DNA of 64,000 bases, taken from Flaccisagitta enflata. Taxonomy: Eukaryota. Positions 31,890 through 52,471 of the stretch are shown here, in pieces (position 1 is the stretch's first letter; every line of letters begins with the position of its first letter). The notes beneath the pieces were generated by a model. It did no database searches. It saw only the letters and a list, made by a program, of their open reading frames with translations, and was not told where the DNA came from. The stretch spans positions 5,456,001-5,520,000 of the forward strand of contig OZ231126.1 of NCBI GenBank assembly GCA_965153355.1, given 5' to 3'. The position numbers and the translations under genes are program-made.

Positions 31890-32100
31890 GAATGCCAAGA
31901 TAGAGTGAATTACTGCATGTAACCACCACTTCCACCAATTCACCCAACTGCGAGTGCCCAGAGTGTATTACTGCATTTACCCACCACTACCACCATTTCA
32001 CCCAACTTTGAGTGCCCAGAGTGAATTACTGCATTTAACCACCACTACCACCATTTCACCCAACTTTGAGTGCCCAGAGTGAATTACTGCATTTAACCAC
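31890..32100. repeat. ~59-bp tandem repeat
   Basis: 3-4 copies of GAGTGCCCAGAGTGAATTACTGCATTTAACCACC... Confidence 0.85.
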
Positions 32101-33758: not shown

Positions 33759-33824
<66 letters not shown>

Positions 33825-34933
33825 CAGCCCTTTTACGATTTTTTTTTTTTCTGGTCGGCGGAGAGCTGCCTTACTGGTATCACACAAAAACCAAACCACT
33901 ATATGATTTTTGTGCTTGTTGAGAAATACAGTCACACTGAGTGTTGATAAAATCATGTAAAACCAATCCCATAGAAACCCAAAACAGAAGCAGTTCATAG
34001 ATCAAAATACCATAAAATGACAAGAAATTGATTTATTTGACCATACATTTCATTCAGTGAGTGATAAGACTGACTTTTCTCCAGCTGTCCGTATATTTAT
34101 TTCCTAGATAGTATATCGGAGAAAAAAGTCATGAGATACTCCTCATTTGGGAGTAAATCAGGAATCAGGATTTCCCGAAAAATCTACCGATCACGTTTTT
34201 GCCATTATTAATCTTTTTATCAAATTACAATCATTTTAGTCTCGGATTGGTCTGCGCCACGTCATGCGGGACTCGATATTTTGGTTGGAAGAAGGAAAAA
34301 CTAACGCAAAGAAGAATGAATGAATGAATGAATGAATGAATGAATGAATGAATGAATGAATGAATGAATGAATGAATGAATGAATGAATGAAAGAATGAA
34401 TGAATGTATGAATGAATGAATGAATCGAATGAATGAATGAACATGAATGAACGAATGATCAACGAATGATTGAATGATAGAGGGAATGATTGAATGAATG
34501 AATGACTGAATGAATGAATGACTGAATGTACAAATGAATGAACACATAAATGAATGAATGAATGAATGAATGAATGCGTAAAAGAAAAAAGAATAAATGA
34601 AGGAATTAAAGAATTGATGAATAAATGAATAAATGAAGGAATGAATGAAAGATTAAAGGAGACCACCACTCTCATCTCCTTGTCAAAATTTCGAGCTTCT
34701 AACCTCTCTGATTTGGAAACGTTATTGCGTAGTTGCGTATTCACTCAAAAAGCTGAAGGCTAGCGGCATCAACTCAAAAGTAGTAAATTTCGGGTCTATG
34801 AAATACGATTTCTGATTTCTGACCTACATCCTTACAGATTCTATACAACAAATGCTTCATTCGGGCCAGATTTAGTGGTTTCGCTATTAGCTGTGAATGA
34901 GAAATGAAGTGAGAATGAGATAGAATGAGATAG

Positions 34934-35132
<199 letters not shown>

Positions 35133-35246
35133 GAGGTGTAATGCATACCCGAAATGTAAACAAATTTTGTGCTAATCACAAGTTTAAATCATGGAAAAGG
35201 AAAACCGGTTGACCCCCGGGGTAGAGGAGGAGGTGGGGGAGGAAAA

Positions 35247-36242
35247 TGTTACGATCCTGAATTCGTCTCTCAGGCCACGCGGCGCGGAAAAGACTCACTC
35301 GATGGCTAAAGAGAAAGACGCTTGAACGGCGCCGCCTCTCGGCGCCTACGACGCCGCCTCTCGACGCCGACGACGCCGCCTCTCAACGCCGGCGACGCCG
35401 CCTCTCAACGCCGGCGACGCCGCCTCGGTCGCGCGGCGCCGCTCTTCTCCTAATCCACGAACGGCTGCGGGGATGAAGCCAACGCACGGACGATCGCGAC
35501 AACAGATATCCTCAACACGTTGACGGGCGCTCGAGAATGAGACCTGAGAATGGGAATTCGGAATGACGGAAGAATGGACGGAGGAATGGAAAGAAGAATG
35601 GCGGAGAAGAATGGACAGAAGAATGGCGATCGGAAGAATGGACAGAAGAATGGCGATCGGATTTGGGCCAACGGGACTGATGCTCTGGCTCAAATAAGCC
35701 CTTAATAGAGAGACTCTCAAACATTGGGCCTACGGATTAGCCCCTAAAATAGCCTCTCTACCGACGGAATTCCTAGCTAGTTTCCTCCCGTTATAAGTTA
35801 GCAGGGCATATTTTTGTATCAGTGCAAATATAACTATCATTTCACCATTCTAATGCTGTGTCTCTCATTTCTTTGCATATTTATAAAGTACGGGAAATAT
35901 GGGTCTCTGAAGGCTCAGTTTGGTTTGTAGATATCTGCCTCTGGTCTCACTCTTACGTACGTCTTTTACCATCTATGTACCATTTTTACCATCTCAAGGT
36001 CATTATACCATCCATTATACACTTTATCCATACGATGATGACTGTGGAAACCGGGCTAGGAACTCGTGCTGTTCGTCTCTGGCTGGTTGGGCCATCCTTG
36101 GGGGTCGTGTGGTGGAGATCGCTCTCTTGGGGCCCGCATCCTAGAGGCCCACCTCTCATCATTCTTATGTCGACATCGTGCCATGGTGAATATCGTTCCG
36201 CCCATTATCATCATCACCACTCCCAAATATCATCTTCTAAAA
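35247..36242 (+). repeat. 5' LTR (996 bp)
   Basis: Begins TGTTACGATCC, ends CATCTTCTAAAA; near-identical to 49060-50076. Contains CGACGCCGCCTCTC and GAAGAATGG minisatellites. Confidence 0.95.
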
Positions 36243-37562: not shown

Positions 37563-37931
37563 ATGGATCAACAACTTCGTGACAGCGCTGTTGGATACAA
37601 CGCGGGAAATCAATATCAACTGCCCCCACGAAACAACAACCAAGTGGCCGGCAGATCCTTCCCAAGTCTAGCAATCGTCGAGGCCCGAAGAGACGTCAAA
37701 CGCGCGCTACTAATCGCGACACTTGAAATAAAAAGGGACAATCCTGGTCAAACCGCCGACTTCGCTTGGACGTTACTTCAAGACCGTTTGGTAAGAGAAA
37801 CAGTTGTAGAGCAGCATAGCGAGATTCAACAAATCTGGGACTTCGCCTTTAATCAACCAGCAAGACCCCACTTTCAATCCCTTTATCAAACAGATTTGAG
37901 CGAAACCGAATCTCTGTGGTATTCTTTGTAG
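37563..37931 (+). CDS. Small ORF0 upstream of gag (or frameshifted gag N-terminus), unknown function
   Basis: ATG-initiated ~122-aa non-repetitive ORF overlapping the start of the gag frame. Confidence 0.4.
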   Translation: MDQQLRDSAVGYNAGNQYQLPPRNNNQVAGRSFPSLAIVEARRDVKRALLIATLEIKRDNPGQTADFAWTLLQDRLVRETVVEQHSEIQQIWDFAFNQPARPHFQSLYQTDLSETESLWYSL

Positions 37932-38168
37932 TCAAGTGCGTTAATCTGTCGAGAGAATCCGTAACATTGTGGGCCGTATTTTCCCATTCTTACTCAAATC
38001 TTACAATTTCGGGGTCGAGGTCCAAGGCCGAGATCATCAAAAAAATTTTACAACTTCCATCTTACCGCATGAATAAACGGCACCTGCCCATTGTTGAAGC
38101 AATCAGAGCTAACGTGATAAGAAGCAACCGAGAAAGAGAAAGAGCTCAAGCTAACGAAGCCCAAGCTG

Positions 38169-38212
<44 letters not shown>

Positions 38213-39627
38213 AGACAACAGCAACAACGCCGGCAGGTAATACGACCAAGATACCGAGTTTCAACCATGGCTGCTACTGCACAACAAGAGTTGGCCGACG
38301 CGTACAAGCGCAAATCCATCACCTATCCCGATTTTAAGCCGACCATGGATTTTGTGATGTGGGTCAATGGGTACAAGGAGAAAATCAGAATCGCATTTGG
38401 CCTCACCACCGCCCAAAACGATGAAGTCCAAGCGGAAGTGGTGCGCTCCATTTCTGGTCGCCTTCAGACCGGACAAGCGCTTGACGCCTACCACCGTCTC
38501 GCTCAGGCGGACAAGGACAATTACGACCAACTGATTAAAAAGCTTACTGAGGAATTCATCGATCCACAAGAGAAACAGAAATTCCTCGAAGACTTCGAAT
38601 ATACGAAACGGAGGAAAAATCAGTCCATCAAAGATTTCATCCAAGAAATCAAGAAAGACATGGGCAAGTATTCAGACATGCCGGATTACCACATGAACGG
38701 ACAAACAAGGGTTGAGAACACGGCAAAGGTGAGAGAAGGAATCCGGCGATTCCGGAAGGGGATCAGAAACAGGAAAGGAAAGAAAGACAAGGAACAAATG
38801 CGCCAAATCAAATACAACCTCCACAAAGAGGCTGATCTCACGTGGGAAAACGCACTCGACGTCGCATGTAGGTACGAGGCAGCCCACGATTTGAGCTCAG
38901 ATTCATCGGCTTCATCATCGTCGTCGAGCGAGGAAGAAAAAGAAAAAGATGACGATCTCGTCGACTCTCGGACAAAAAGAAGAAAAGATCCAAAAAGTCG
39001 AAGAAGAAGTCGAGCAAAGTTGGCGCAGTAGAGCATGACGTATTCATCGCCACATTGGCCGACAAAGTGGAAATTAACGCCCGTGACATTAAAGGCGTGA
39101 AGAGCGCGCAAGAACGACTAGACACAAATGTCACAGAATGGAAAAACGAAACTTCCTCACGACTTGACAGTCAGAGCTCGGCACTTGCGGAAATCCTCAA
39201 AGAGGTAAGAGGCAACAGACAGCAACCGCAACAGCAACAACAACAACAAACATATTACAATCGCCAGCCTTACCGCCAACAAAACCCAAATCGCCCTAAT
39301 CAATATGTGTGGAAAGGAAGAGTGGGCCAAACGCAGCAAACGGGCTTCAGATACAATCGCAGCACCCCGGCGACTTACCCAGCAACAGCCGCAGCAGCAC
39401 CAGCAGCCGCGGCGCCCGCAGCCGCTGCGCAGCCGCAAGCGGCAGCAGCCCCAGCAACGGTCGCCTATGTGGAATCTGTTGATCCGGCGGCTCAACTTCT
39501 TGGCGCTGAAGGAGGCGGTACCATTACCGTCCCAGTTGGGCAATTTTACGAGTTATGTGACCGCGCCGGCGAGGAAGTTGACGACAACGACATCATCTCG
39601 GCGGTAGAAAACTTAAATTTTCATTAG
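37916..39627 (+). CDS. gag: gag (capsid-like), split by a frameshift near 38965 into 37916-39031 and ~38968-39627
   Basis: Retrotransposon gag pattern (DF..W...Y; L.TGQALDAY..L...YDQL...L..EF; NQSIKDFIQEI). Likely start ATG 38267. The second frame continues DKKKKRS...NLNFH*. No CCHC knuckle seen. Confidence 0.85.
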
Positions 39628-39658: not shown

Positions 39659-42600
39659 ATTCGAGGCCTAGATGCCCCCAAAATACGCTGCCTAATCGAT
39701 ATTCTAATTAACACTACAACTACTAATTGCTTGATCGATACTGGGGCAGGCCCATCATGTATAAGTGAGGATTTAATGATGTCAAACGCCCACCTCAGGC
39801 AGATGAACATTCGAAAATGTGAAAGGAAGGCATACAGTGTTAGTGGTGCACCTGTTGCAACTCTCGGCATCGTTGATTTCGAATTTAAGATAAATGGCGC
39901 CTCTTATACTCATGAATTTCTGATCTTACGCGGGTTAATCCACCCCGCAATCCTTGGTCTCGACTTTCTTTCCAAATTCAATGCCAATATTCAACTTGGA
40001 GAAAATCCCCGACTCCAACTACGTCACCCTGTAAATAAACTTGTTTCTGTTGATTTTATCAAACGAGCCAAAGGAGGTAAGATACCAACTCGAATTGCAA
40101 TTGTGGGAGACATTGAAATCCCTCCACTGACCACATACTATGCAGATGCATACATTTCTAACATTGAAGGAGTAGCAGGAATTGAAGACACTTCGAAAGA
40201 ACGGCTTTTCGGCATAACAAGCATTCAGCATGAAGACCCACTCTTTGACCCAGGGATCATAATGAGAGATGCGGTAATCGATCCCAAATCAGCCCAATTC
40301 AAGGTGGAACTAATGAATCCGTCCAGTTTTAAACTAAAAGTCGCTGCCGATACCCCAGTGGGCTTCATATTCGATGAAAACTGTGAAATTCTAGAAAATG
40401 AAAGTCATGTCAGCAATATTTGGGATGAACCGGCGGTAAGCGAACAGGACGCATACCTCCGCCAGCAAGCATTGCTATCTTCGTCAATTAGCATGGTGGA
40501 GGAGAAATCAAGATCGGCTAATTCACCAGGCCAACCAGCCCAGCAGGTGCCTGGTTCCTCACAGCCGACCAACGCCGCAAATCCGACTGATACAGCGGCC
40601 GAGCCCGAGCCAGATCCCGATGCCACGGAGGTGAAAAGACACCTCCACCACCCAACGCGTCCACCCAATCAGAATGGAGCGGAGCCTCCACTCGTGACTC
40701 AGCCCAGGACTGAGCCGAGTTTGGGCCCCGAAAATAAAGCTGATTGCAGTTACTTTACTCGTGCCTTCGAAGATAGCAGTGATGAACTCAAGTTTGCCCA
40801 CCGTCTCAAACCAGGTGAAACTATCACCAAAGACAACAAAGCCTTCATCATTGATTTAAGTGGGTGTGATGCTATTGATCAAAATCAAAAAGACAAACTG
40901 GAAGAGACTATAATGCAACACCAGAAAGCCTTTGCCAAGAACCCAATGGATGTCGGTTGCACGAAGCTAGTCTATCACCACGTGAAGATCTCATCGGATC
41001 AACCAGTCTATGCTTCATATCATAAGGCCCAGGGCACGGAAATTCGAAAAGTCATAGATGAACAGACAGAAGGTCTCCTAGCTGCAGGCGTTATCAAAGA
41101 ATCTGAGAGCCCTTACTGCTCTCCCATCGTCATGGCAAGGAAAAAGGACGGTGGATGGCGCTATTGCGTCGACCTGAGAAAAATCAACAACCTGACCGAA
41201 AAAGTCTCCTTCCCTCTACCGAAAATCGAGGATGCCCTGCGACGACTGAAGCAACCGAAGATATTCTCCTCGCTTGATCTGCTCAAGGCGTATTATCAAA
41301 TTCCGGTAGTGGAGGAGCACCAACGCTACTACGCGTATTCCGATGGAAGAAGACATCTTCAATTCGCCCGCTGCCCCATGGGGGCCAAAAATAGCGGCTC
41401 GTCGCTCGCCCTCCTGATGGAACTCGTGCTCAGGGGCCTCCCCCCTGAGTGCGTAATCGGATATCTCGATGATATCCTCATAGCGACGGAAGATTGGGAA
41501 ACGCACCTCAAGATCATCTCACGCCTACTCACTGCCCTGGAACACGCCGGACTGAAGTTGTGCCCCGGCAAATGCCATTTCGGAAGGAAGGAAGTCAAAA
41601 CACTGGGCTACACTTTGTCGGAAAAGGGCATAAGACCGGATGACTACAATTTGGACAAAATCAGGAAGTGGACAGAAGCCAAGGACGTCAGCCAAGTCCG
41701 AACCTTCCTCGGACTTAGCGGTTATTATCGAGGAATCATCCGGGGCTATGCCCACATCGCGGCACCTCTCACTGATTTGTTGCAAGAAAACGTCGCCTGG
41801 AAATGGGAAGAAAGTCAAAAACAGGCTTTTGGGAAACTGAAAGAGATACTTCTATCTGAGCCTGTCGCCTCATACCCAGATTATGACCTCCCATTCCTAC
41901 TAAAAACAGATGCCTCCAAAGTGGCCATGGGAGCCGTATTGGGCCAAAGGAAGGAGAAGAAAAAGGAAACAATGATTGCATGTACAAGCAAAAAGTTCAA
42001 CAAGGACGAATTAAACTGGATCCCTTACGACCGAGAGTATTGGGCAGTAGTCTCTGGGGTAAGGCACTTTGCACACTATCTCAGGTTCAAACCCTTTGAG
42101 ATCATCGTCGACCACAAGCCCCTTTTGGCATGGAAAAATGTGACAACCCAACGCGACGGATCTAACAAACGCACGCGCTGGGCTATGGAGCTCAGTACAT
42201 TTGACTTCACTATGTACTACAAGGAAGGCAAACGTCACGGCGATGCGGACGCGTTGTCCCGTCATCCAGAGCCGGATGAGCCCGATGAAGAATCCGAAGA
42301 TGAGGTAATAAGCCTGGTGGAAACAAACGATCCATCGTCCATTTACTTCTTGGCTGCATCATTCGCGGCAGAGATTGGATTGGTGGAAATACATTCAGAT
42401 GAAAAGGCTGCAGAAGAAATGAAGGAGTTGCAAAGCAAGGACCCAGTTATTGTGAAAGCAGTTGAACTCATCAGGTCAAAGGTCACTGACAAAGAAGGCT
42501 GGAAAGACCTGCCCAATTGGTATGTCCAGAACAGACGAGACTTCGCAGTTAGTGAGGGCGTGCTATATCACTCAAAACAAATTAGTTCTTCCAACAAGCC

Positions 42601-44842
42601 AATAGCGAGAACGGTGATCCCCGAATCCAAACGCATAGAAATGCTGTACAGGGCCCACGGACACACTCAAAGTGGCCACCCTTGCGCTCAAAGGGCCAAA
42701 TCAAGGTTGGAGAAATTCGCCGTTTGGCCAGGAATGTCGGATGATATCAAGGACTTCGTACATCGATGCGCTGAATGCCAGGCGGTCCGTAAAGACATTC
42801 CTAGAAAATTTTCACCCATTGAAGCTCAAACAGCCAATCATCCACTGGAATTCGTCCAAGCCGACCTCTACTTTGTTGGCAAATCACACAAGAAATTCAT
42901 TTATGTTATGGTGATGGAAGATAGAGCAACAAAACACTGCAAACTTTTTGCCCTCAAAGACGGCCAATCCACTAGCGTCGCCGCATGTCTAGAGATCTAC
43001 ATCTCGCAACTGGGATGTCCAGACCGATGGGGAACTGACGGAGGAAAAGAATTTTTCGACAGGCTAATCATGGCACTCTGCAGGGTCTTCAGAATAAAGA
43101 AAGAATTCGCATTGGCATATAGACCACAGACCCAAGGACAAACGGAGAGAAAGAACAGAACGATCAAAGCAGAGTTGGCAAAGCGATTCCATCAGTTTGG
43201 ACCAGATTGGCCTTCAATGCTAAAGTGGATTGAATTCTCCTACAATACAACCATCCACCCAAGCCATGGATTCACGCCCTTTCAACTCATGTTCGGAAGA
43301 GAACCACGCCTCCCAATTGAGCAAGACATCCCTCACATCAGCACCAAAGGCTGGAAGACATCAATGAAAAACTACTTCACCGACTTCCTTGATCACTTCC
43401 ACAAGATGAGGGAGATGGCGGCGAGAAATCGCGAGGCCTACAAGGCTAAAATGGGCTCCCAACATAAACACCTTCTCGCACCAGTTCCGCCTGGAACAAA
43501 AGTCCTGAGATCTATCCCCGAAAAACTCGTTGGCAAGGCAGATCTCCTGAAGGACGGCCCATGGACCGTCCTTGAGCAAAGAGAAAAAGAAGGAAAACCA
43601 CTCCCAGTTTACGTCGTCAAAGACGAGCAGGGAAATACACTCTTCACACATCGTCAAAATCTCTCCTTGTTCAAAGAACCAGTCATCAAGAATGAGCCAC
43701 AAGAGCAAAGTCAGAAAACGACGACCCCAAAGAAAGTCAAAACGCCAGAAACGAAGGTGAAGGAAGTCAGTGAAGGACCGGCGTCGCGCACAAGGTCCAA
43801 AGCAAGGCCAATCCTAACTCTCGTAAGGCGTCAAAATGCCGCCGCCGCGCCGCCGCCGCCGCCGCAGCAGCAACCGCCGCAGCGGCGAGGGCAGCAGCCG
43901 GGTCCAAGACCCCCGCCGCCACCCGACGGCGACGATGACGACGGCGATGGTGATGACGACGATGACGACGATGACGAGGATGATGACGACGCCGACATTA
44001 TTGGAGATATTCCCGGAGATAGCCCAGGAGACATCCCTGGGGACATTCCGGGAGACATCCCCGGAGACGACGCCGCTGCCACACAACCAACGCCGCCGCC
44101 ACAACAGCAGCAGCAGCAGCAGCAGCAGCCGCGGCAACCGCCGCAACAACCGTCACAACCAGCAGGCATTAACAACGACGATGGTGAGTTGGAAAACAAC
44201 GAAGACGAAAACGGCGCCGGAAGCGCCGATAGGGAAGAAGAAGAAGAGGAGGAAGAGAGGTTTGAGTCGGAGAGTGAAGAGGAAGAGAGCAACGATGAAT
44301 CGCCAAACGATACTCTCAGAAACGAAGACCGATCGATTGACCGATTCAACGACGCCGGGCACCTCACAACGCCGGACCTCAGCAGCGCCGGCAATTCACC
44401 GGCGGTAAACCGACAAATCCGTCTTCAAGATTTTCATGGCGACTCCGACAGCCAAGAAGAAGAATTTCTGTCTGGAGAAGAAGGTAATGACCTCAACGCC
44501 TTCCTGCCGCCACGCCACGATGCGCCGCTCCTACCGCTTCGGCGTCAATTGCCACAGGCAAGAGTAGCGCCGCAACCATCAACAGGAAGACGCAGCTCTC
44601 TCATTCCAGACTCATCGCCAATGGCAAGAGAAATGGAAGGTGGTGGACAGAGTCTGGCAGAACGGCGACTAAGCTCAACAGAAGGGCCTCCCATCGTACC
44701 GGATAACGCCGATGTCTCCATCACAGCCGCCGACGATGACCCTTTATTTAGGGGCGGCAGAATTGTAGAAATGGTGACAAATCGAGCCGGCGTAAGAACT
44801 TCGGTGACAAGAAGCCGAAGAAATCAGTCTCCATCTCAGTAA
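39659..44842 (+). CDS. pol: pol polyprotein: aspartic protease, RT, RNase H, integrase, long disordered tail
   Basis: LIDTGA and ILGLDFL (PR); YCSPIVMARKKDGGWRYCVDLR and YLDD (RT); LKTDASKVAMGAVL and DHKPL (RH); H-H-C-C (AHGHTQSGH...CAEC) and D,D,E (VQADL, TDGGKEF, TERKNR) (IN). Frame is open from 39659. Confidence 0.97.
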   Translation: MRGLDAPKIRCLIDILINTTTTNCLIDTGAGPSCISEDLMMSNAHLRQMNIRKCERKAYSVSGAPVATLGIVDFEFKINGASYTHEFLILRGLIHPAILGLDFLSKFNANIQLGENPRLQLRHPVNKLVSVDFIKRAKGGKIPTRIAIVGDIEIPPLTTYYADAYISNIEGVAGIEDTSKERLFGITSIQHEDPLFDPGIIMRDAVIDPKSAQFKVELMNPSSFKLKVAADTPVGFIFDENCEILENESHVSNIWDEPAVSEQDAYLRQQALLSSSISMVEEKSRSANSPGQPAQQVPGSSQPTNAANPTDTAAEPEPDPDATEVKRHLHHPTRPPNQNGAEPPLVTQPRTEPSLGPENKADCSYFTRAFEDSSDELKFAHRLKPGETITKDNKAFIIDLSGCDAIDQNQKDKLEETIMQHQKAFAKNPMDVGCTKLVYHHVKISSDQPVYASYHKAQGTEIRKVIDEQTEGLLAAGVIKESESPYCSPIVMARKKDGGWRYCVDLRKINNLTEKVSFPLPKIEDALRRLKQPKIFSSLDLLKAYYQIPVVEEHQRYYAYSDGRRHLQFARCPMGAKNSGSSLALLMELVLRGLPPECVIGYLDDILIATEDWETHLKIISRLLTALEHAGLKLCPGKCHFGRKEVKTLGYTLSEKGIRPDDYNLDKIRKWTEAKDVSQVRTFLGLSGYYRGIIRGYAHIAAPLTDLLQENVAWKWEESQKQAFGKLKEILLSEPVASYPDYDLPFLLKTDASKVAMGAVLGQRKEKKKETMIACTSKKFNKDELNWIPYDREYWAVVSGVRHFAHYLRFKPFEIIVDHKPLLAWKNVTTQRDGSNKRTRWAMELSTFDFTMYYKEGKRHGDADALSRHPEPDEPDEESEDEVISLVETNDPSSIYFLAASFAAEIGLVEIHSDEKAAEEMKELQSKDPVIVKAVELIRSKVTDKEGWKDLPNWYVQNRRDFAVSEGVLYHSKQISSSNKPIARTVIPESKRIEMLYRAHGHTQSGHPCAQRAKSRLEKFAVWPGMSDDIKDFVHRCAECQAVRKDIPRKFSPIEAQTANHPLEFVQADLYFVGKSHKKFIYVMVMEDRATKHCKLFALKDGQSTSVAACLEIYISQLGCPDRWGTDGGKEFFDRLIMALCRVFRIKKEFALAYRPQTQGQTERKNRTIKAELAKRFHQFGPDWPSMLKWIEFSYNTTIHPSHGFTPFQLMFGREPRLPIEQDIPHISTKGWKTSMKNYFTDFLDHFHKMREMAARNREAYKAKMGSQHKHLLAPVPPGTKVLRSIPEKLVGKADLLKDGPWTVLEQREKEGKPLPVYVVKDEQGNTLFTHRQNLSLFKEPVIKNEPQEQSQKTTTPKKVKTPETKVKEVSEGPASRTRSKARPILTLVRRQNAAAAPPPPPQQQPPQRRGQQPGPRPPPPPDGDDDDGDGDDDDDDDDEDDDDADIIGDIPGDSPGDIPGDIPGDIPGDDAAATQPTPPPQQQQQQQQQPRQPPQQPSQPAGINNDDGELENNEDENGAGSADREEEEEEEERFESESEEEESNDESPNDTLRNEDRSIDRFNDAGHLTTPDLSSAGNSPAVNRQIRLQDFHGDSDSQEEEFLSGEEGNDLNAFLPPRHDAPLLPLRRQLPQARVAPQPSTGRRSSLIPDSSPMAREMEGGGQSLAERRLSSTEGPPIVPDNADVSITAADDDPLFRGGRIVEMVTNRAGVRTSVTRSRRNQSPSQ

Positions 44843-45757
44843 TTCACATCCTCGGCGTCTTCCTCTCAACTCAAAAAAAAAAATTATCAAATTGAATGGT
44901 AAATTGTTTATTCCTAAGACTTGCCTCAAGGGCAAAGTTAAGGTAAGAGAGGAGAAATGAAAAAGTTTTTTTTGTTTTTTTTGAAAACGAAAGCAAAATG
45001 ATTGAGAGATGACAGTGACAACGATGACGATAAGAAATACTGACGACGATAAATGGACTGGACCGAAAACCGATAAGATAAATTCCAATTTCCAAAATGT
45101 ACATACTTGACCGGCCTCATGGGTCCGGTCAAAATGAGATTTATCATTACACGATGGTACGATTTTTTTTCCCCCTGCCAAAGTGGGCCTCAAATCACCC
45201 ATGAATTTACAACGGTTTCCCTAACAACTAACCCCAAGGGTATAGTTCAGGTATGAATAGATAACAAGTCGCGTGCAAATAGTCGGAAGTGGAAAAAAAT
45301 AACATCTTTTCAGTCGCGTAAAACAAATGAAGGGGGAAATTGATATGAATCTTTCAAATTATGTCGATACGACTGACCTCACGGGTTCAGTCAACAAAGA
45401 AGCTGACAAACGTTTCCCTATAACTGGCCCCAAGGGTATGGTTAAGGTATCATTGGGTTGTAAAGTCGCATGAAGATTCAATAAATGCAAAACTAACCAT
45501 TCAGTCGCGGGAAATGAGAAATATGGTGAATCTGAAAATGCCCAATGAGAGATATGCCGTAATCAACTGCCCAAATCCGAATTCAGTAGGGAATTGAAAT
45601 GTCTACTGCTTGATACATCAAACGAGCTGCCTTAGGAGGAAGGGTTAGAAGGAAGGCTGTTGTTTGTCATTGTCAAAGAGAGCCAATCAACCAATCAAAT
45701 CTGTCCCGTGATTCTCGATCAATTTATTAATCCGTGTCACCTTTCAATCCTCTAAAA

Positions 45758-45777
45758 TGCTAACCTTTTCCCCTCAG
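45758..45777 (+). promoter_or_regulatory. Candidate splice acceptor for a subgenomic ORF3 mRNA
   Basis: TGCTAAC branch point, CTTTTCCCCT pyrimidine tract and CAG, 80 nt upstream of the ORF3 ATG with no intervening ATG. Confidence 0.55.
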
Positions 45778-45856
45778 AGCGATATCCTAAGGTAAGTGAA
45801 CTGGTAATTAGGAGCAACAACGAATACAACGCCGTAACGCGGCAAAAAGCGGCGAA

Positions 45857-48481
45857 ATGAATCGCGAAAAAGACGTCTGGGCGGGCGTCTCTGCCGACCA
45901 TTTGACGGCAAACCAAAAACGAGAAGCGAGCAAAGCCAAAGACCATCAAGTGGAACTACAACGAGGTCGGAAAATGCTTCAAGCACCGTTTGAGACCGGC
46001 GACGAGGATCCTAAAGATTTTGTCATCAACACCTTGGACGGTTTTAAATCCTTTCTCAAAGAAGGCCTAGCGATGGCGGTCAAGCCGACCATTCTGGCCA
46101 TTGAGACGAAGGGAAACAGCGACTGTTGGGTAAAAGAAAGGAAACGCCTCGACGGCGACGATTACTACAAAAACGACGAGTCGTCGGGAGTTTCTATTCT
46201 GTTGATGAACATTTTCAATCGCGAGGGTCGCGATAAATTGGCTTACATCGAAATCAAGAAAATCATCGAAAACGAGCTCGACGGAGTCCCTGACTTGCCG
46301 GAGGACTTTGGTAATTTGTTGAAAAGCCCAATGGTCATGGTTCTATGCGAAAGCGCGCCAAAATACCTCAAACGGATCGAGAATTGCTTCTTTCAAAAAT
46401 TAAACGGCGTGCTGTACCTCACTCTCAACGACTTGGTCCGCCGTTACAAGGACTACCGTCGCGAAAAGCTCGATCACATTTGGAGATTCAAGTTGGATCC
46501 GTGGGAAAACGATGGCTTATTGATCAACTTCCACGAAGTTTTCCGTGTCGAAACGTTTTTCAAAAATCCCTACGAGGTTTTGGCAGACCACAGCGACGTC
46601 AAAGATCTCCGACCGTCCCAGATCAGACATGGGCTGAATAAAATGCATTTCAGCGGAATGCTCATCGCCCGCATCCTCGAGTATTTCGTCCACTGGAATT
46701 TGTCACTCTCGGTTATGGGCACTCTTTTCCCAAAAATGGAAGCGGAAGAGAGAAGCGACTTTCGCTTGCAGGAAATGCTTGAACTCGGGGTTCAACCGCC
46801 GAAATGGTACGACGAGTTTAGATGGCCGTGTTATCTGGAGGAAAGGTACGGCACCACCAGCCGCGTCGAAGGCGTCGGGGACCCGGAGAAAGTTCGAGAG
46901 GAAATGGTGGAGGTTGACAAAAACCGTCGTCGCGCGAACCCGACGGGAATGCAGGGTAAAAGAAAGTTGGAAGTGAGTGACGTCAGCGACGACGAAGACG
47001 CCGACATTGCCAACAGGAAGCGACGCGCAGACAACAACGAGACGATGAGAAGAGGAGAAAGGACGGCGAGGCACATTCGCCAGAAACGTATGTCGGAAGA
47101 AGAATTGAAGAAATGGCTGAAACACGACAAAAACGACGAGGTTCTATTCGTCAAAACGGTCATTCTTAATTTGAGAACGCATCAAGACAAAATGACGACG
47201 TTAAGAATACTCGATTTCTACGCAAATGTGTGGCCAGACGACAGGAAGGAAAAGTTGATCGCAAATTTAGCGGTCGAAGGGTTTTTCGCGGATACTTCTC
47301 ATTGCCCGCCGTTCAAAACGATGATGAGGCTAAAAATCCAAGTTCCGTCGCCTAAGTCGCTCCTGATGTATGGAGTTCAGCCTGAACAAATAGCGTCGGC
47401 CGTCGGACGTCTTGCGGGACCGCTGATTCAAAGGCGTGTACTGGTATTTTTGGAAGAGTATATGGCTTGCCCAATGGATGCACGCCTATCAATGCTGGAG
47501 AAATGCGACTTTTTCCGCCGACAGGACCTTCAAAAGTATCTAAAGAACGACGACCAGATCGAGAAATGGATCAGGGCAATTTGCGCTGAATGCCGCCTTA
47601 CGCCGTCGAACGAGTATTTCCGATTTAAGCGTCCCGGGTTTGTGGCAAGGATCATTGAAGCAGGACGTCAAGGAAGAATTTCAGCATCAAACGCCGCATT
47701 TTCCGTCGCAGTACATGTGGGCGACGACTGGGACGACAAAAGAGACGCCGTTCTGCTTGCGGCGCCGTGGCCACGATTGGCGAAATTGCTCCACGAACGT
47801 TGGGGCCTGTGGGGAGACCCGCCCCAATACCAACGTTGCGACCCGAATCTGAGAGAGGATGTCCAATGTCGACCGGCGCTGCACGCGCATCAGAAGGAAG
47901 AAGAGGTGAAATTTCTGCGCACTCAAACGGAGGTAGATGCGATGAAAACGGCCTTAGCGAATGAGGAAATATTTATTATCGATTCCCGCGAAAATCGACA
48001 CCCGAGATCGTTCGATTTGATGCCGGCGTTAGTTTCTTTCCGAGCTCCGGGGCGCGATATCTACGCGTTTTTCGCGCGCACGATGGACGCCGGTCTGCGC
48101 AACCAAATCTTGTCGTTCATGGCCGGTAAGATCTCCTTCGCGCGCCACGCCGATTTGGTCAAGAAGCTCTTGATCCCGCGAGTTCGCCGTCACAAATGGG
48201 TTAACGTCGGGAAATTTGCGTCAAAGCATGGAACCGGGAGGAGTGCCGATGCCATATGCAGCTTCGTGTGGAACGTCCGGTCATGCATCGTCGGCGTTGA
48301 CGAGTACGTATTTGATCCGCTCTCCACACAACAGAAGAGGCACGTTGCCTACGACTTGGAGTGGTTGGACGCGCTGCTGCGCAAAGTTGGTATGAGCAAC
48401 CAAGCTGTAGCCGCCGCCGCCGCCGCCGCAGCCGACGCCGCGGATGAAGACGACAACGGCGAGGAACAGCGCGACGACTGA
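45857..48481 (+). CDS. ORF3, 874 aa: unknown N-terminal part plus MUT-7/Nibbler/EXD3-like helical domain and DEDD 3'-5' exonuclease-like domain
   Basis: Exo I-like FIID709SRE712; Exo II-like KISFARHAD766LVKKL; Exo III-like PLSTQQKRH829VAYD833. Upstream AGPLIQRRVLVFLEEY resembles recalled EXD3 AGFPDLQRRLLVLMDSW. No signal peptide, TM helix or furin site of an env seen. Confidence 0.7.
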   Translation: MNREKDVWAGVSADHLTANQKREASKAKDHQVELQRGRKMLQAPFETGDEDPKDFVINTLDGFKSFLKEGLAMAVKPTILAIETKGNSDCWVKERKRLDGDDYYKNDESSGVSILLMNIFNREGRDKLAYIEIKKIIENELDGVPDLPEDFGNLLKSPMVMVLCESAPKYLKRIENCFFQKLNGVLYLTLNDLVRRYKDYRREKLDHIWRFKLDPWENDGLLINFHEVFRVETFFKNPYEVLADHSDVKDLRPSQIRHGLNKMHFSGMLIARILEYFVHWNLSLSVMGTLFPKMEAEERSDFRLQEMLELGVQPPKWYDEFRWPCYLEERYGTTSRVEGVGDPEKVREEMVEVDKNRRRANPTGMQGKRKLEVSDVSDDEDADIANRKRRADNNETMRRGERTARHIRQKRMSEEELKKWLKHDKNDEVLFVKTVILNLRTHQDKMTTLRILDFYANVWPDDRKEKLIANLAVEGFFADTSHCPPFKTMMRLKIQVPSPKSLLMYGVQPEQIASAVGRLAGPLIQRRVLVFLEEYMACPMDARLSMLEKCDFFRRQDLQKYLKNDDQIEKWIRAICAECRLTPSNEYFRFKRPGFVARIIEAGRQGRISASNAAFSVAVHVGDDWDDKRDAVLLAAPWPRLAKLLHERWGLWGDPPQYQRCDPNLREDVQCRPALHAHQKEEEVKFLRTQTEVDAMKTALANEEIFIIDSRENRHPRSFDLMPALVSFRAPGRDIYAFFARTMDAGLRNQILSFMAGKISFARHADLVKKLLIPRVRRHKWVNVGKFASKHGTGRSADAICSFVWNVRSCIVGVDEYVFDPLSTQQKRHVAYDLEWLDALLRKVGMSNQAVAAAAAAAADAADEDDNGEEQRDD

Positions 48482-49059: not shown

Positions 49060-50076
49060 TGTTACGATCCTGAATTCGTCTCTCAGGCCACGCGGCGCGG
49101 AAAAGACTCACTCGATGGCTAAAGAGAAAGACGCTTGAACGGCGCCGCCTCTCGGCGCCTACGACGCCGCCTCTCGACGCCGACGACGCCGCCTCTCAAC
49201 GCCGGCGACGCCGCCTCTCAACGCCGGCGACGCCGCCTCGGTCGCGCGGCGCCGCTCTTCTCCTAATCCACGAACGGCTGCGGGGATGAAGCCAACGCAC
49301 GGACGATCGCGACAACAGATATCCTCAACACGTTGACGGGCGCTTGAGAATGAGACTCGAGAATGCGACTTTAGAATGGGACTTCGGAATGACGGAAGAA
49401 TGGACGGAGGAATGGAAAGAAGAATGGCGATAGGAAGAATGGACAGAAGAATGGCGATCGGAAGAATGGACAGAAGAATGGCGATCGGGCCCAAATGGGG
49501 CCAACGGGACTGATGCTCTGGCTCAAATAAGCCCTTAATAGAGAGACTCTCAACGCATTGGGCCTACGGATTAGCCCCTAAAATAGCCTCTCTACCGACG
49601 GAATTCCTAGCTAGTTTCCTCCCGTTATAAGTTAGCAGGGCATATTTTTGTATCAGCGCAAATATAACTATCATTTCACCATTCTAATGCTGTGTCTCTC
49701 ATTTCTTTGCATATTTATAAAGTACGGGAAATATGGGTCTCTGAAGGCTCAGTTTGGTTTGTAGATATCTGCCTCTGGTCTCACTCTTACGTACGTCTTT
49801 TACCATCTATGTACCATTTTTACCATCTCAAGGTCATTATACCATCCATTATACACTTTATCCATACGATGATGACTGTGGAAACCGGGCTAGGAACTCG
49901 TGCTGTTCGTCTCTGGCTGGTTGGGCCATCCTTGGGGGTCGTGTGGTGGAGATCGCTCTCTTGGGGCCCGCATCCTAGAGGCCCACCTCTCATCATTCTT
50001 ATGTCGACATCGTGCCATGGTGAATATCGTTCCGCCCATTATCATCATCACCACTCCCAAATATCATCTTCTAAAA
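49060..50076 (+). repeat. 3' LTR (1017 bp)
   Basis: Direct repeat of the 5' LTR. The exact 3' end lies within an A run and was set from the 5' LTR/PBS junction. Confidence 0.93.
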
Positions 50077-50080
50077 AAAA

Positions 50081-50870
<790 letters not shown>

Positions 50871-52471
50871 AATCAAGATCACCAGGGCGATTGTCAGCTT
50901 ACAGCCTACTTTGTTTGACTCAACAATGTACACAGACTCTCAATCATCATCATCAAAGCCTCGTAAAAATGGCACTCACCCAAAAAAAAGAAAGACCAGG
51001 AATTTGAGATCAAAGATCACAACAGAAATCACGGTTGAGTGTACGGGTGCCGTGGGGGGCCGGGGTTAGGGGTGGGGGTGTGTGTGGGGGGGGGTTCGAA
51101 ATGGGATAATTTTGAGGTAATGGAGTTTCAAGAGCGGTGGGGGAGAGGGGGGGGATTGTGACGAGGGATTTTGGGCGAGGGGGGGGGTGATTTGGAAATG
51201 AAGGGATTCAATTTTGTGGGTGGAAGACTTGGGCACGGTAGGGACCGGATGAAATAGGGAAGGGGGAAGGGAGAAGGCTGGATGACATGACATGGGGAAG
51301 GGGGAAGGGAAGCGGTGATCTAGATGAAAGTACTTGATGCTTACCAACGATTCTGTTTTATCAATACTTTCTTAACTATCAGAATTTCTTTATTTTCCCC
51401 TTCCTTCGTGCAGCGTGTGAACAATTTTGAGTCTGATTTTCAACAGTTCCGATTTCTTATTAAAATCTGCAACATTTTTAGTCGCTTGCTACGCGACTCT
51501 ACTCCCCGCTTTGTCGGTTCGTCCGTCGGTCCGTCCGTTGGTCCGTCCGTCCGTCGATTTGTCCGTCTGTCACACTTTACTTTTCCGGCGTTAATGGGGG
51601 TTTTGGCCTTATTGCTCCTGCCCAAATGTTCCACTGACGTCAATTATAGCCCCTGCCCACCCGCACGCGACTGGGGTAGCCGTGTATCCGGCCTTGTTGA
51701 TTTAACTATGACATAAGTGAAATAACCATCGTTACTTGACTGAAAGGACGGAATATTTCCTCGCTCAGATATTTCCATCCGTCTCTCTTCTGGATATAAA
51801 ACATTGGAAAACGAGGATTGAAATTACTCAAATTGCAATAATGGATCAATCGTTTTTATTAGTGGCATTCAAGATTGATGATTTCAAATGTGATCGACCA
51901 AAATCAATGGCATAAAAGTTTTTTTCCTTTCCAACTTCTTTTTTCTTTTTTCCCTCTCTTTCGATATCTTTTGTACTTTGATCGTGATAAAACAACAAGA
52001 TTCTAAACCCATTGAGAAAAAAGAATCAGCTTCACTAATAATCTTTCTTTGCAAAAAATATATTATGTCACTTGATCTTATCAAAATTTACGATATTCAA
52101 TCTCAGCGAAAATACATAAAACTCTTTCGAGTGAAGCACATTTATCAGAATTATGGTCCTAGATAAGAAAATGGAAAACATAAGAAAAGGAGGGCTGATT
52201 TGAGGCTCAAGCACGGTGAGTCGGTGATTGTTGACCTAGTAGGGCTGCTTTGAAGCCCAAGAGGACAGAGATGAGGCCTACAAAGGCTGATTTGCGGCTT
52301 CCCCGTGCGGGATTTGGCGGACTTGGGGAATAGGAAACAGAGAAGCAGATTGCCAGATGCGGAATCATAGGTCATCGTCTCCTTCAGAGCCGCTGCCCAG
52401 AAAGCACCGACGAATTGCAACAGGAAACCAGGTCAAGATACCAATTTTGTTTTGCATTATTTTGATTTCTT

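What the first reader, a model, noticed from the sequence alone, without database searches (positions are those of the whole stretch)
47960..48380. Altered DEDD active site in ORF3: DxxE in Exo I and Tyr-to-His in Exo III
Seen: four candidate acidic residues D709, E712, D766 and D833 remain. Exo I is D-S-R-E rather than canonical D-x-E, and the Exo III YxxxD reads HVAYD (H829). The W-x-x-R-P-L motif is reduced to VFDPL. The ORF ends soon after in an Ala/acidic tail, with no Mut7-C domain. Inference: either a rewired active nuclease or a catalytically impaired RNA/partner-binding decoy. This distinguishes the two anti-silencing models.
Basis: partly seen in the sequence, partly recalled or inferred. 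Interest (0 to 1): 0.7.

Follow-up and report, generated by a model that had tools for sequence, protein, structure and literature searches.

The report
Retrotransposon ORF3 with degenerate exonuclease domains
The third gene of a young gypsy-type retrotransposon encodes a protein with two domains that have the shape of RNA-trimming exonucleases but have mostly lost the catalytic residues, so it probably binds RNA rather than cutting it.

Summary
ORF3 (45857-48481, 874 aa) lies in a ~14.8 kb Ty3/gypsy-type LTR retrotransposon.

No sequence method detects an exonuclease. The AlphaFold2 models are confident, with pLDDT 90.5 for the whole protein and 94.5 for the C-domain. The C-terminal domain matches DEDDy exonuclease folds best: Drosophila Nibbler EXO, Z 15.8, rmsd 2.7 A, 174 of 179 residues.

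Collinear offsets to E. coli RNase D put D709, D766, H829 and D833 at the ExoI Asp, ExoII Asp, ExoIII Tyr and ExoIII Asp positions. The ExoI Glu position holds R711, and E712 is one residue off.

The carboxylates are not conserved. Only the window copy and one relative (98% identical in this domain) carry all four; the other 34 rows carry at most two. H829 is invariant, as are an N-[RK]-[DN]-P-R loop and W..DPL...Q.

A second, N-terminal DEDDy-fold domain also lacks the tetrad.

Best reading: a tandem pseudo-exonuclease that binds RNA. An anti-silencing role was not tested.

The parts
35247..36242 (+). 5' LTR (begins TGTTACGATC)
   Evidence: blastn against the 3' LTR gives 97.2% over 1017 columns. 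300-nt blocks are 99-100% identical. A PBS-like TGGTGCATCGG starts 1 nt downstream.
37853..39031 (+). Gag-position ORF (392 aa stop-to-stop), no family match
   Evidence: ORF list. Pfam finds no family at E<=0.01. The gag role is inferred from position only.
39659..44842 (+). pol ORF: protease, RT, RNase H, integrase, then a ~570-aa low-complexity tail
   Evidence: Pfam matches: gag-asp_proteas, RVT_1 (1.6e-25), RT_RNaseH_2 (1.8e-28), Integrase_H2C2 and rve, in Ty3/gypsy order.
44843..45856 (+). About 1 kb spacer between the pol stop and the ORF3 ATG
   Evidence: ORF coordinates. How ORF3 is expressed is unknown.
45857..48481 (+). ORF3, 874 aa (P0001)
   Evidence: It belongs to a family of 82 representative proteins with E<=1e-3 among 1.84 billion.
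45974..46756 (+). ORF3 N-terminal DEDDy-fold domain (aa ~40-300), non-canonical site (E83-T-K85; Y170, which is H in the family; H258...K262)
   Evidence: VIA-align hits: Egalitarian 9rw3_D (Z 15.4, rmsd 3.4, 207 aligned), WRN 2fbt (Z 15.1, 193 aligned), T. brucei RNase D (Z 15.1). Alignment. In the Atlas, 24 of 30 hits fall in the PF01612 set.
46835..46996 (+). Disordered charged linker (aa ~327-380)
   Evidence: pLDDT is below 50 at 327-334 and 361-380.
47000..47881 (+). Alpha-helical middle domain (aa 382-675), basic, weakly HEAT/MA3-like; ends in the conserved C671
   Evidence: DSSP on the model. pI 9.45. Only weak matches: p97/DAP5 (Z 9.0, rmsd 4.9), Pdcd4 (Z 9.2, rmsd 15.5). C671 is conserved in 16 of 16 rows.
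47882..48406 (+). ORF3 C-terminal DEDDy-fold domain (aa 676-850): the finding
   Evidence: Model pLDDT 94.5. Nibbler EXO Z 15.8. Foldseek E 1.4e-7. pI 9.65.
47981..48007 (+). Exo I region, D709-S-R711-E712, followed by the family-conserved N713-R-H-P-R717 loop
   Evidence: D709 aligns to RNase D D28 and R711 to E30. N713 is conserved in 26 of 29 rows, R/K714 in 28 of 29, P716 and R717 in 30 of 30.
48152..48154 (+). D766 at the Exo II Asp position
   Evidence: Same offset (681) to RNase D D85 as Exo I. In the family it is K in 13 rows and D or E in 10 of 33.
48284..48355 (+). C810...E816-Y817-x-x-D-P-L...Q826-x-x-H829-V-A-Y-D833 (Exo III block)
   Evidence: hhalign against RNase D. Offsets. C810 is conserved in 32 of 32 rows, Q826 in 31 of 32, H829 in 31 of 31, Y832 in 29 of 31.
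48407..48481 (+). Ala/acidic C-terminal tail and stop codon
   Evidence: pLDDT falls to 39-66 here.
49060..50076 (+). 3' LTR

Best explanation
ORF3 is the accessory protein of a recently inserted, multi-copy Ty3/gypsy-type LTR retrotransposon. It has two DEDDy-type (RNase D / WRN / Mut-7-Nibbler-like) 3'-5' exonuclease folds, one on each side of a basic alpha-helical domain.

The domain in the finding is a true structural relative of the Nibbler EXO domain. In the window copy, Asp sits at three of the four canonical metal-ligand positions (709, 766, 833). The ExoI Glu position holds Arg (R711). The ExoIII Tyr is an invariant His (H829).

Across the family the carboxylates are not maintained. 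What is maintained is H829, a basic N-[RK]-[DN]-P-R loop just after strand beta-1, and the core motif W-x-x-D-P-L-x3-Q.

The most likely mechanism is that the old substrate cleft survives as a nucleic-acid binding pocket, probably for an RNA 3' end or stem-loop, without two-metal hydrolysis. Exd1, Exuperantia and, in functional terms, Egalitarian work this way. The protein would then act as an RNA-binding or adaptor factor for the element, handling its own RNA or host small RNAs.

Shown here: the element's anatomy, the fold, the residue mapping by collinearity, and the pattern of conservation. Inferred: loss of catalysis, RNA as the ligand, and any role in the element's life cycle.
For: - Fold: Z 15.8 / rmsd 2.7 / 174 of 179 residues to Nibbler EXO. 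DEDDy families fill the top ranks and DEDDh enzymes score only Z 8-9. Foldseek gives E 1.4e-7.
- Mapping to RNase D motif residues by constant offsets, the hhalign hit on the ExoIII block and the structural alignment start.
- Non-conservation of the carboxylates against 31 of 31 conservation of H829.
- Only the window copy and P0101 have all four reader acids. The other 34 rows have at most 2.
- In a midpoint-rooted tree of 28 rows, one clade of 14 has a single acid at the canonical positions (P0048, D766) and has K at 766 in 10 of 14.
- The canonical ExoI Glu position holds Arg in the window copy.
- The C-domain (pI 9.65) and the middle domain (pI 9.45) are basic.
- The N-domain is also a DEDDy fold without the tetrad.
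- Intact full-length relatives at 28-50% identity argue that selection acts on the protein despite the lost tetrad.
- Precedents, read as passages: Exd1 and Exu are inactive RNA binders, and Egl's DEDDy residues are dispensable for RNA binding (bioRxiv 10.1101/2025.08.03.668247). Exd1 itself is a fold hit at Z 13.6.
Against: - The window's own lineage keeps 3 of 4 canonical carboxylates, has Glu one residue from the fourth, and has His where DEDDh enzymes use a general base. With an 11% D+E background, three acids at three given sites is unlikely by chance, so residual or rewired activity in this copy is possible.
- Invariant H829 at the catalytic Tyr position could indicate chemistry rather than binding.
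- No RNA-binding or nuclease data exist.
- Metal-site geometry was not measured.
- The ExoI/ExoII mapping rests on collinearity and a low-confidence hhalign extension, which placed D766 one residue off.
Confidence: 0.6

Rival explanations
1. In the window's sublineage the C-domain is still an active, rewired nuclease. D709, D766 and D833, with E712 recruited from the neighbouring position, bind the metals. H829 acts as general base, as in DEDDh enzymes. The domain would trim RNA or DNA 3' ends for the element or against host small RNAs.
For: Three of the four canonical positions are Asp, Glu is adjacent to the fourth, and His sits at the Tyr position. The same set is kept in P0101, with D766 replaced by E. 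Relatives nearest the window more often have acids at 709 and 766 (P0002 E/D, P0008 E/D), which is consistent with vestigial retention. Bdelloid LTR elements carry ORF3s with an intact DEED set (PMC5408684, passages).
Against: The canonical ExoI Glu position holds Arg. That mutating any one of the tetrad in Klenow-type enzymes severely reduces activity is established knowledge, recalled here. No other family member has more than 2 of the 4 acids, so catalysis cannot be the function that keeps the family. P0101 is 93.7% identical overall, so it is not an independent retention.
Confidence: 0.2
2. An active-site switch of the Maelstrom type. The invariant C671, H676, C810 and H829 form a zinc site in or beside the former catalytic cleft, so H829 is a structural metal ligand. 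The domain would be a Zn-stabilised binding module, or a metal-independent endonuclease. This is compatible with the best explanation as to loss of DEDD chemistry.
For: C671 is conserved in 16 of 16 rows, H676 in 25 of 25, C810 in 32 of 32 and H829 in 31 of 31. They are the only Cys and His that are 80% or more conserved in residues 660-850. The C-x4-H spacing is typical of zinc knuckles (recalled). In Maelstrom, a conserved EHHCHC set replaced the DEDHD set on the same superfold (PMC2628886, passages). Rodriguez et al. note a Cys-His-Cys motif in Vesta DEDDy ORF3s (PMC5408684).
Against: No distances could be measured. C671 and H676 lie in an N-terminal extension whose position relative to H829 is unknown. 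Conservation of C810 and H829 could instead reflect core or ligand-binding roles.
Confidence: 0.15
3. The DEDD likeness is a chance motif resemblance on an unrelated alpha/beta fold.
For: No Pfam, PDB-sequence or profile hit to any exonuclease for any of the 83 members.
Against: Two independent structural searches put DEDDy exonucleases first, at Z 13-16 over the whole domain. The ExoIII block aligns to RNase D, and three motifs are collinear with it.
Confidence: 0.02

Closest known systems
Nibbler / Mut-7 EXO domain (PDB 7jw6, 7jw2)
   Same: Best structural match to the C-domain: Z 15.8, rmsd 2.7 A, 174 of 179 residues. Same DEDDy topology and same W-x-x-[RD]-P-L...Q...[YH]-A-A-x-D block.
   Different: About 10% identity and no profile match. 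ExoI Glu is replaced by Arg and Tyr by His. The carboxylates are not conserved in the family. There is no Mut7-C domain. The protein is encoded by a retrotransposon, and the DEDDy fold occurs twice in it.
Exd1 (PDB 5fiq), Exuperantia, Egalitarian (PDB 9rw3): DEDDy-fold RNA binders
   Same: Exonuclease fold used, or usable, without catalysis. Exd1 matches the C-domain at Z 13.6. Egl matches the N-domain at Z 15.4. These proteins bind RNA around the old active site and on added basic surfaces (bioRxiv 10.1101/2025.08.03.668247, passages).
   Different: No sequence relationship was detected. Egl keeps all five DEDDy residues. The partner domains differ. RNA binding by ORF3 is untested.
DEDDy ORF3 of bdelloid rotifer Juno/Vesta LTR retrotransposons and Athena elements (Rodriguez et al. 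2017, PMC5408684)
   Same: A DEDDy-type domain encoded as an extra ORF downstream of pol in an LTR retrotransposon. Those authors also raise the Mut-7, Maelstrom and Exd1 parallels (passages).
   Different: The rotifer ORFs show strong sequence homology and an intact DEED set. Here no sequence method finds the domain, the tetrad is degenerate, there are two such domains plus a helical domain, and the close pol relatives are all unnamed assemblies.
Maelstrom MAEL domain (active-site switch)
   Same: A DnaQ-like fold in which the catalytic acids are lost and a new conserved Cys/His set appears (PMC2628886, passages). Compare C671, H676, C810 and H829 here.
   Different: MAEL derives from the DEDDh (DnaQ-H) branch, whereas ORF3 matches DEDDy enzymes best. 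A zinc site in ORF3 is only a hypothesis.
E. coli RNase D (PDB 1yt3)
   Same: Z 14.9. The three Exo motifs are collinear, with an identical ExoI-ExoII spacing of 57 residues.
   Different: RNase D has the full DEDDy set and HRDC domains, and it matches PF01612. ORF3 does not match PF01612.

Membership tests
DEDDy 3'-5' exonuclease superfamily (DnaQ-like; Pfam PF01612 DNA_pol_A_exo1) | RNase H-like alpha/beta fold with DEDDy topology | tested here: met
   C-domain: Z 15.8 to Nibbler, 14.9 to RNase D, 14.2 to WRN. N-domain: Z 15.1-15.4 to WRN and Egl.
DEDDy 3'-5' exonuclease superfamily (DnaQ-like; Pfam PF01612 DNA_pol_A_exo1) | Sequence-profile match to the family model | tested here: not met
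   No Pfam family at E<=10 for ORF3. No exonuclease family appears among the 25 listed of 40 families, each hit by 1 of 83 members. The control, E. coli rnd, scores 182.8 bits.
DEDDy 3'-5' exonuclease superfamily (DnaQ-like; Pfam PF01612 DNA_pol_A_exo1) | Four invariant carboxylates (ExoI D and E, ExoII D, ExoIII D) | tested here: not met
   The window copy has D709, R711 (not E), D766 and D833. In the family, acidic residues occur in 3 of 29, 10 of 33 and 6 of 31 rows at positions 709, 766 and 833.
DEDDy 3'-5' exonuclease superfamily (DnaQ-like; Pfam PF01612 DNA_pol_A_exo1) | Tyr four residues before the ExoIII Asp | tested here: not met
   His in 31 of 31 rows.
DEDDy 3'-5' exonuclease superfamily (DnaQ-like; Pfam PF01612 DNA_pol_A_exo1) | Metal-dependent 3'-5' exonuclease activity | not testable with these tools
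   This needs an enzyme assay.
Mut-7 / Nibbler family | Mut7-C (PF01927) domain, or Nibbler's N-terminal domain, alongside EXO | tested here: not met
   Pfam finds no Mut7-C. After the domain the ORF ends in a 24-aa Ala/acidic tail. Nibbler's N-terminal domain was not specifically compared.
Catalytically inactive DEDDy-fold RNA binders (Exd1 / Exu type) | DEDDy fold with an incomplete catalytic set | tested here: met
Catalytically inactive DEDDy-fold RNA binders (Exd1 / Exu type) | Demonstrated RNA binding and lack of nuclease activity | not testable with these tools
   The only indirect evidence is basic pI: 9.65 for the C-domain and 9.45 for the middle domain.
Retroelement-borne DEDDy ORF3 (bdelloid Juno/Vesta/Athena type) | Extra ORF downstream of pol inside the LTRs | tested here: met
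   ORF3 at 45857-48481 lies between the pol stop (44842) and the 3' LTR (49060).
Retroelement-borne DEDDy ORF3 (bdelloid Juno/Vesta/Athena type) | Sequence kinship with the rotifer ORF3 pool | not tested
   No rotifer sequences were at hand. None of the 82 family hits carries a name.
Ty3/gypsy (Metaviridae-type) LTR retrotransposon | LTRs, with pol in the order PR-RT-RNaseH-IN | tested here: met
   A PBS-like TGG motif follows the 5' LTR.

The most novel reading that the evidence does not exclude
ORF3 founds an undescribed class of retroelement accessory protein. It is a tandem pseudo-exonuclease in which the DEDDy metal site has been rebuilt by an active-site switch. The new site would be either a Cys/His (C671-H676-C810-H829) metal site, or the basic loop plus the invariant His. 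The element would use it to capture RNA 3' ends or stem-loops. That could blunt host small-RNA silencing (a decoy for Nibbler- or Exd1-type steps). Alternatively, in the manner of Egalitarian, it could couple the element's own RNA to transport or packaging.
Probability: 0.12. Interest if true: 0.85.

Novelty: new variant of a known kind. Interest (0 to 1): 0.55.

Why it matters
Extra ORFs of LTR retrotransposons are mostly unexplained. DEDDy exonuclease ORF3s were known only from bdelloid rotifer elements, where sequence finds them easily and the catalytic residues are intact (PMC5408684).

Here a family of at least 82 representative proteins has no Pfam match and no named member. Only structure reveals that it carries two exonuclease folds, and the catalytic tetrad is decaying while a different set of residues is conserved.

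This gives a concrete, testable case of a mobile element holding a pseudo-enzyme of the type that hosts use in piRNA and miRNA 3'-end processing (Nibbler, Exd1) and in mRNA transport (Egalitarian). It also shows that accessory-gene capture by retroelements can be missed by sequence-only annotation.

Tried and rejected
- **Sequence searches that found no known family:** Pfam on ORF3 at E<=10 and on all 83 members. PDB phmmer. PDB profile search, best hit SPAG16 at E 0.041, unrelated. ESM Atlas on the C-domain, no usable hit.
- **Word-index protein search:** found only one relative. The exhaustive HMMER search was needed to find more.
- **Own genome:** not held.
- **Related loci in JGI metagenome contigs:** 130 pattern matches, none confirmed.
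- **Earlier findings of this scan:** nothing.
- **Internal duplication:** hhalign of the N-domain profile against the C-domain profile gave probability 0.6%. The two domains are not detectably alike in sequence.
- **A diverse RNase D profile for residue mapping:** both attempts returned only enterobacterial sequences at 74% identity or more, and PF01612 in E. coli K-12 gave only rnd and polA. The profile-profile alignment therefore stayed weak (probability 12%), and mapping rests mainly on collinear offsets.
- **Expression:** no RNA holder is listed. The one poly-A RNA-seq run of the same study laid 0 reads out of 12.2 million read, about 6% of the run. That is no test, because the organism's presence in that sample was not shown.
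- **His-Lys-His idea for the second clade:** 766 is K in 10 of 14 rows, but 709 is H in only 6 of 14. It was not pursued.
- **Viral structure library:** only generic giant-virus and phage 3'-5' exonuclease and PolA hits, E 3e-4 or weaker.
- **Middle domain:** only weak HEAT/MA3-like matches at Z 8-9. Its fold is left open.
- **Complex prediction:** not used, because no protein-protein binding claim is made.
- **Model coordinates:** not available to scripts, so no active-site or Zn-site distances were measured.
Full report
**1. Setting**

The finding lies in the last fifth of an 874-codon ORF (45857-48481, + strand). Direct repeats of about 1 kb at 35247-36242 and 49060-50076 are 97.2% identical over 1017 alignment columns. 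300-nt blocks within them are 99-100% identical.

Between the repeats lie three ORFs:
- A 392-codon ORF in the gag position, with no Pfam match.
- A 1727-codon pol with protease, RVT_1, RT_RNaseH, Integrase_H2C2 and rve domains, in Ty3/gypsy order.
- After a 1,015-bp spacer, the ORF in question, which is thus an 'ORF3'.

The LTR starts with TGTT. A TGG-initiated PBS-like motif begins 1 nt after the 5' LTR. A 4-bp AAAA duplication may flank the element, though in low-complexity sequence this is weak evidence.

No whole genome is held for the window. In contigs of two DNA runs labelled with the same coded organism, the whole element is covered by short contigs with summed word depth in the hundreds. 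This includes ORF3 (about 400-750) as well as pol (about 600-1300). That fits a multi-copy family in which ORF3 is a regular component. Depth here is not a copy number.

**2. The observation**

Pfam reports nothing for ORF3 even at E<=10, so there is no Mut7-C.

**3. Is it an exonuclease domain at all?**

Sequence methods say nothing:
- No Pfam hit for ORF3.
- For the 83 family members, no exonuclease family appears among the 25 listed of 40 families, each hit by a single member.
- No PDB hit by phmmer or by family profile.
- No Atlas hit for the C-domain.

An exhaustive HMMER scan of 1.84 billion representatives found 82 relatives (E<=1e-3; 60 at E<=1e-10). Seven are full-length or nearly so (844-906 aa, covering at least residues 40-841 of ORF3), at 29-50% identity by the search's own figures. 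None carries a name, and most come from ENA assemblies on 3-12 kb contigs.

With these as alignment, AlphaFold2 gives a confident full-length model: mean pLDDT 90.5, pTM 0.66. The domain-only model for aa 672-850 has pLDDT 94.5 and pTM 0.89.

The C-domain model was compared with 48,161 PDB representatives without Foldseek:

| Hit | Z | Detail |
|---|---|---|
| Drosophila Nibbler EXO 7jw6_A | 15.8 | rmsd 2.7 A, 174 of 179 residues |
| Aedes Nibbler 7jw2 | 15.3 | |
| Aquifex Pol I exo domain | 15.2 | |
| E. coli RNase D | 14.9 | |
| WRN exo | 14.2 | |
| Exd1 | 13.6 | |
| Rrp6 | 13.4 | |
| Klenow | 12.1 | |
| Egalitarian | 11.6 | |
| DEDDh enzymes (ISG20, PARN, epsilon, ExoX) | 8-9 | |

Foldseek agrees, with E 1.4e-7 and TM 0.70 to Nibbler. 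The topology is beta 705-711, beta 725-729, beta 735-738, alpha 745-756, beta 759-762, alpha 765-775, beta 781-783 and a long alpha 824-844. This is what I recall as the DnaQ-like pattern.

**4. Do the named residues sit at the catalytic positions?**

Model coordinates are not exposed to scripts, so I could not superpose metal sites. Three indirect lines agree.

- (a) hhalign of the family C-domain profile against E. coli RNase D (fetched) aligns EW-x-x-DPL-x3-Q-x2-H-x-A with tDW-la-rPL-ter-Q-ce-Y-a-A. For this single comparison E is 0.0024 and probability 12%.
- (b) Constant offsets link all three Exo motifs. RNase D D28, E30 and D85 correspond to D709, R711 and D766 (offset 681). K132, W139, P143, L144, Q148, Y151 and D155 correspond to C810, Y817, P821, L822, Q826, H829 and D833 (offset 678).
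- (c) The structural alignment to 1yt3 starts at chain residue 1 against model residue 11, which is aa 682. That is the same offset of 681.

That these RNase D residues are the DEDDy catalytic set is recalled literature knowledge.

So D709, D766 and D833 occupy three of the four canonical carboxylate positions, and H829 occupies the Tyr position. One caveat: the low-confidence part of the hhalign alignment placed D766 one residue off.

**5. Conservation**

Counts below are over the 33 rows that cover at least 60% of residues 700-845, non-gap rows only.

| Position | Finding |
|---|---|
| 709 | D in 1 row, E in 2, of 29; H is commonest (8) |
| 712 | E in 9, D in 2, of 29 |
| 766 | D in 7, E in 3, of 33; K in 13 |
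| 833 | D in 2, E in 4, of 31 |
| 829 | H in 31 of 31 |

P0101 is 98% identical in this domain and matches 819 of 874 residues overall. The other 34 rows carry 0-2.

I built a FastTree of the 28 rows with at least 80% coverage, dropping 8 of 36 for coverage. Rooted at the midpoint, it splits into two clades of 14:
- The window's clade has scattered acids at these sites.
- The other clade has just one (P0048, D766). It has K at 766 in 10 of 14 rows and aromatic or aliphatic residues at 833.

What is conserved instead:
- N713 in 26 of 29 rows, R/K714 in 28 of 29, D/N715 in 26 of 30, P716 and R717 in 30 of 30. This basic loop follows strand beta-1 directly.
- C810 in 32 of 32 rows, E816 in 27 of 31, and W817 in 27 of 31 (Y in the window copy).
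- P821, L822, Q826 (31 of 32), A831 and Y832 (29 of 31).
- In the segment leading into the domain, C671 in 16 of 16 rows, H676 in 25 of 25 and Q679.

Much of this mirrors the structural core motif of true DEDDy enzymes. The family consensus is W-x-x-D-P-L, so the window's 'VFDPL' is that motif with W replaced by Y.

It is not met for H829.

**6.

The N-terminal third of ORF3 (aa ~40-300) is a second DEDDy fold. Its hits are Egalitarian 9rw3_D (Z 15.4, rmsd 3.4, 207 aligned), WRN 2fbt (Z 15.1, 193 aligned) and T. brucei RNase D (Z 15.1). Language-model features agree: 24 of 30 Atlas hits fall in the PF01612 set, best score 0.92. This is a lead only.

Its sequence is not detectably related to the C-domain (hhalign probability 0.6%). 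By motif inspection:
- ExoI reads E83-T-K85.
- The ExoII Asp position is H170 in 16 of 17 relatives (Y in the window copy).
- ExoIII reads [HY]258-A-L-N-K262.

So the N-domain has no DEDD set either. This mapping is by eye and is an inference.

Between the two domains lie a disordered charged linker (327-380) and a basic helical region (382-675, pI 9.45). The helical region has only weak HEAT/MA3-like matches: p97/DAP5 at Z 9.0 and rmsd 4.9, Pdcd4 at Z 9.2 but rmsd 15.5. These are below what is meaningful for helical repeats. The C-domain is basic (pI 9.65) and the N-domain acidic (pI 5.6).

**7. Mechanism**

The family keeps an intact 850-900-aa protein across 28-50% identity while letting the metal ligands drift. 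Two-metal hydrolysis is therefore not what selection preserves.

The parts that are preserved line the former substrate cleft: the loop after beta-1, which in DEDDy enzymes contacts the 3'-terminal nucleotide (recalled), and the His at the Tyr position. The domain is also basic.

The most economical reading is a pseudo-exonuclease that still binds a nucleic-acid end or stem-loop. Solved relatives work this way. Exd1 is an inactive exonuclease-like domain that recruits small RNAs. Exuperantia has lost its active site. Egalitarian binds RNA around its catalytic site, and its DEDDy residues are dispensable for function (passages of bioRxiv 10.1101/2025.08.03.668247). I put this reading at 0.6.

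The window's own sublineage is the most 'enzyme-like' member of the family (3 of 4 carboxylates, plus His). With an 11% acidic background this is unlikely to be pure chance. It probably reflects vestigial retention from an active ancestor, so a weak or rewired activity in this copy keeps 0.2.

A third idea is prompted by the four invariant Cys and His residues and by the Maelstrom 'active-site switch' (passages of PMC2628886). H829 might be a zinc ligand together with C671, H676 and C810.

What the protein does for the element is not addressed by any result here. It could bind the element's own RNA for packaging or transport, or interfere with host small-RNA 3'-end processing. The single RNA-seq run of the same study laid no reads, and that is no test.

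**8. Comparison and novelty**

DEDDy exonuclease ORF3s in LTR retrotransposons are in print for bdelloid rotifer Juno and Vesta elements and for Athena retroelements. Those have 'strong homology' and a DEED set, and the authors already mention Mut-7, Maelstrom and Exd1 (PMC5408684, abstract and passages).

Two full-text searches found no description of a tandem or degenerate DEDDy ORF3 such as this one:
- 'LTR retrotransposon' + 'additional ORF' + 'exonuclease': 7 papers.
- 'retrotransposon' + 'DEDDy': 13 papers, 11 listed.

I read only listings for the other papers. Supplements were not consulted.

Close pol relatives (40-72% identity) are all unnamed assemblies. Named Ty3/gypsy pols reach only about 26-40% identity. 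One ORF3 relative (P0003) and one pol relative (P0226, 71% identity) both report a longest contig of 11,835 bases. This hints that they share an element, but it was not verified.

I file this as a new variant of a known kind. It is a retroelement-borne DEDDy ORF3, but it is invisible to sequence methods, duplicated, and catalytically degenerate.

**9. Verdict**

Interest is moderate at 0.55. The finding is a clear structural surprise for transposon annotation and offers a testable pseudo-enzyme, but there is no functional evidence yet.

Noticed in passing
window 45974-46756 (ORF3 aa 40-300): The N-terminal DEDDy-fold domain has its own strongly conserved polar set: E83 in 13 of 16 rows, acidic 165 in 17 of 17, H170 in 16 of 17 (Y in the window copy), R173 and E175 in 17 of 17, and D192, H226 and E240. 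These could form a different, rebuilt site. I did not map them in 3D.
   Followed up: partly
window 43300-44842 (pol aa ~1215-1727): After the integrase core, pol runs on for roughly 570 residues of low-complexity sequence: poly-Pro, poly-Gln, poly-Asp/Glu and GDIP repeats. Pfam matches end at residue 1156.
   Followed up: no
window 44843-45856: A 1,015-bp spacer without a long sense ORF separates the pol stop from the ORF3 ATG. An antisense 152-codon ORF lies at 44744-45202. How ORF3 is expressed (splicing or an internal promoter) is unknown. DNA contigs show variant T-rich insertions near 45406-45410.
   Followed up: no
window 33288-35218 and 50200-50920: Long purine-rich microsatellite arrays (8-10 nt periods; AAG/GA-type, read through as poly-Lys, poly-Arg and RE repeats) flank the element on both sides. 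The insertion sits inside simple-repeat DNA, which makes the target-site duplication ambiguous.
   Followed up: partly
window 31902-32102; 55193-55502: Unrelated tandem repeats outside the element: three 58-nt-spaced copies at 89-100% identity, and two 155-nt copies at 73% identity.
   Followed up: no
window 37853-39627: The two ORFs upstream of pol (392 and 224 codons, overlapping at 38953-39031) have no Pfam match at E<=0.01. If the first is Gag, it is of an undetected type.
   Followed up: no
proteins P0003 and P0226 (not in the window): An ORF3 relative (43% identity by the search; 42% in the alignment) and a pol relative (71% identity) both report a longest contig of 11,835 bases. This suggests that the ORF3 family travels with this pol lineage in at least one other element.
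   Followed up: partly
sequencing runs X3-X7: Five runs labelled marine metagenome hold 7-16% of the sampled words of the ORF3 region.
   Followed up: no
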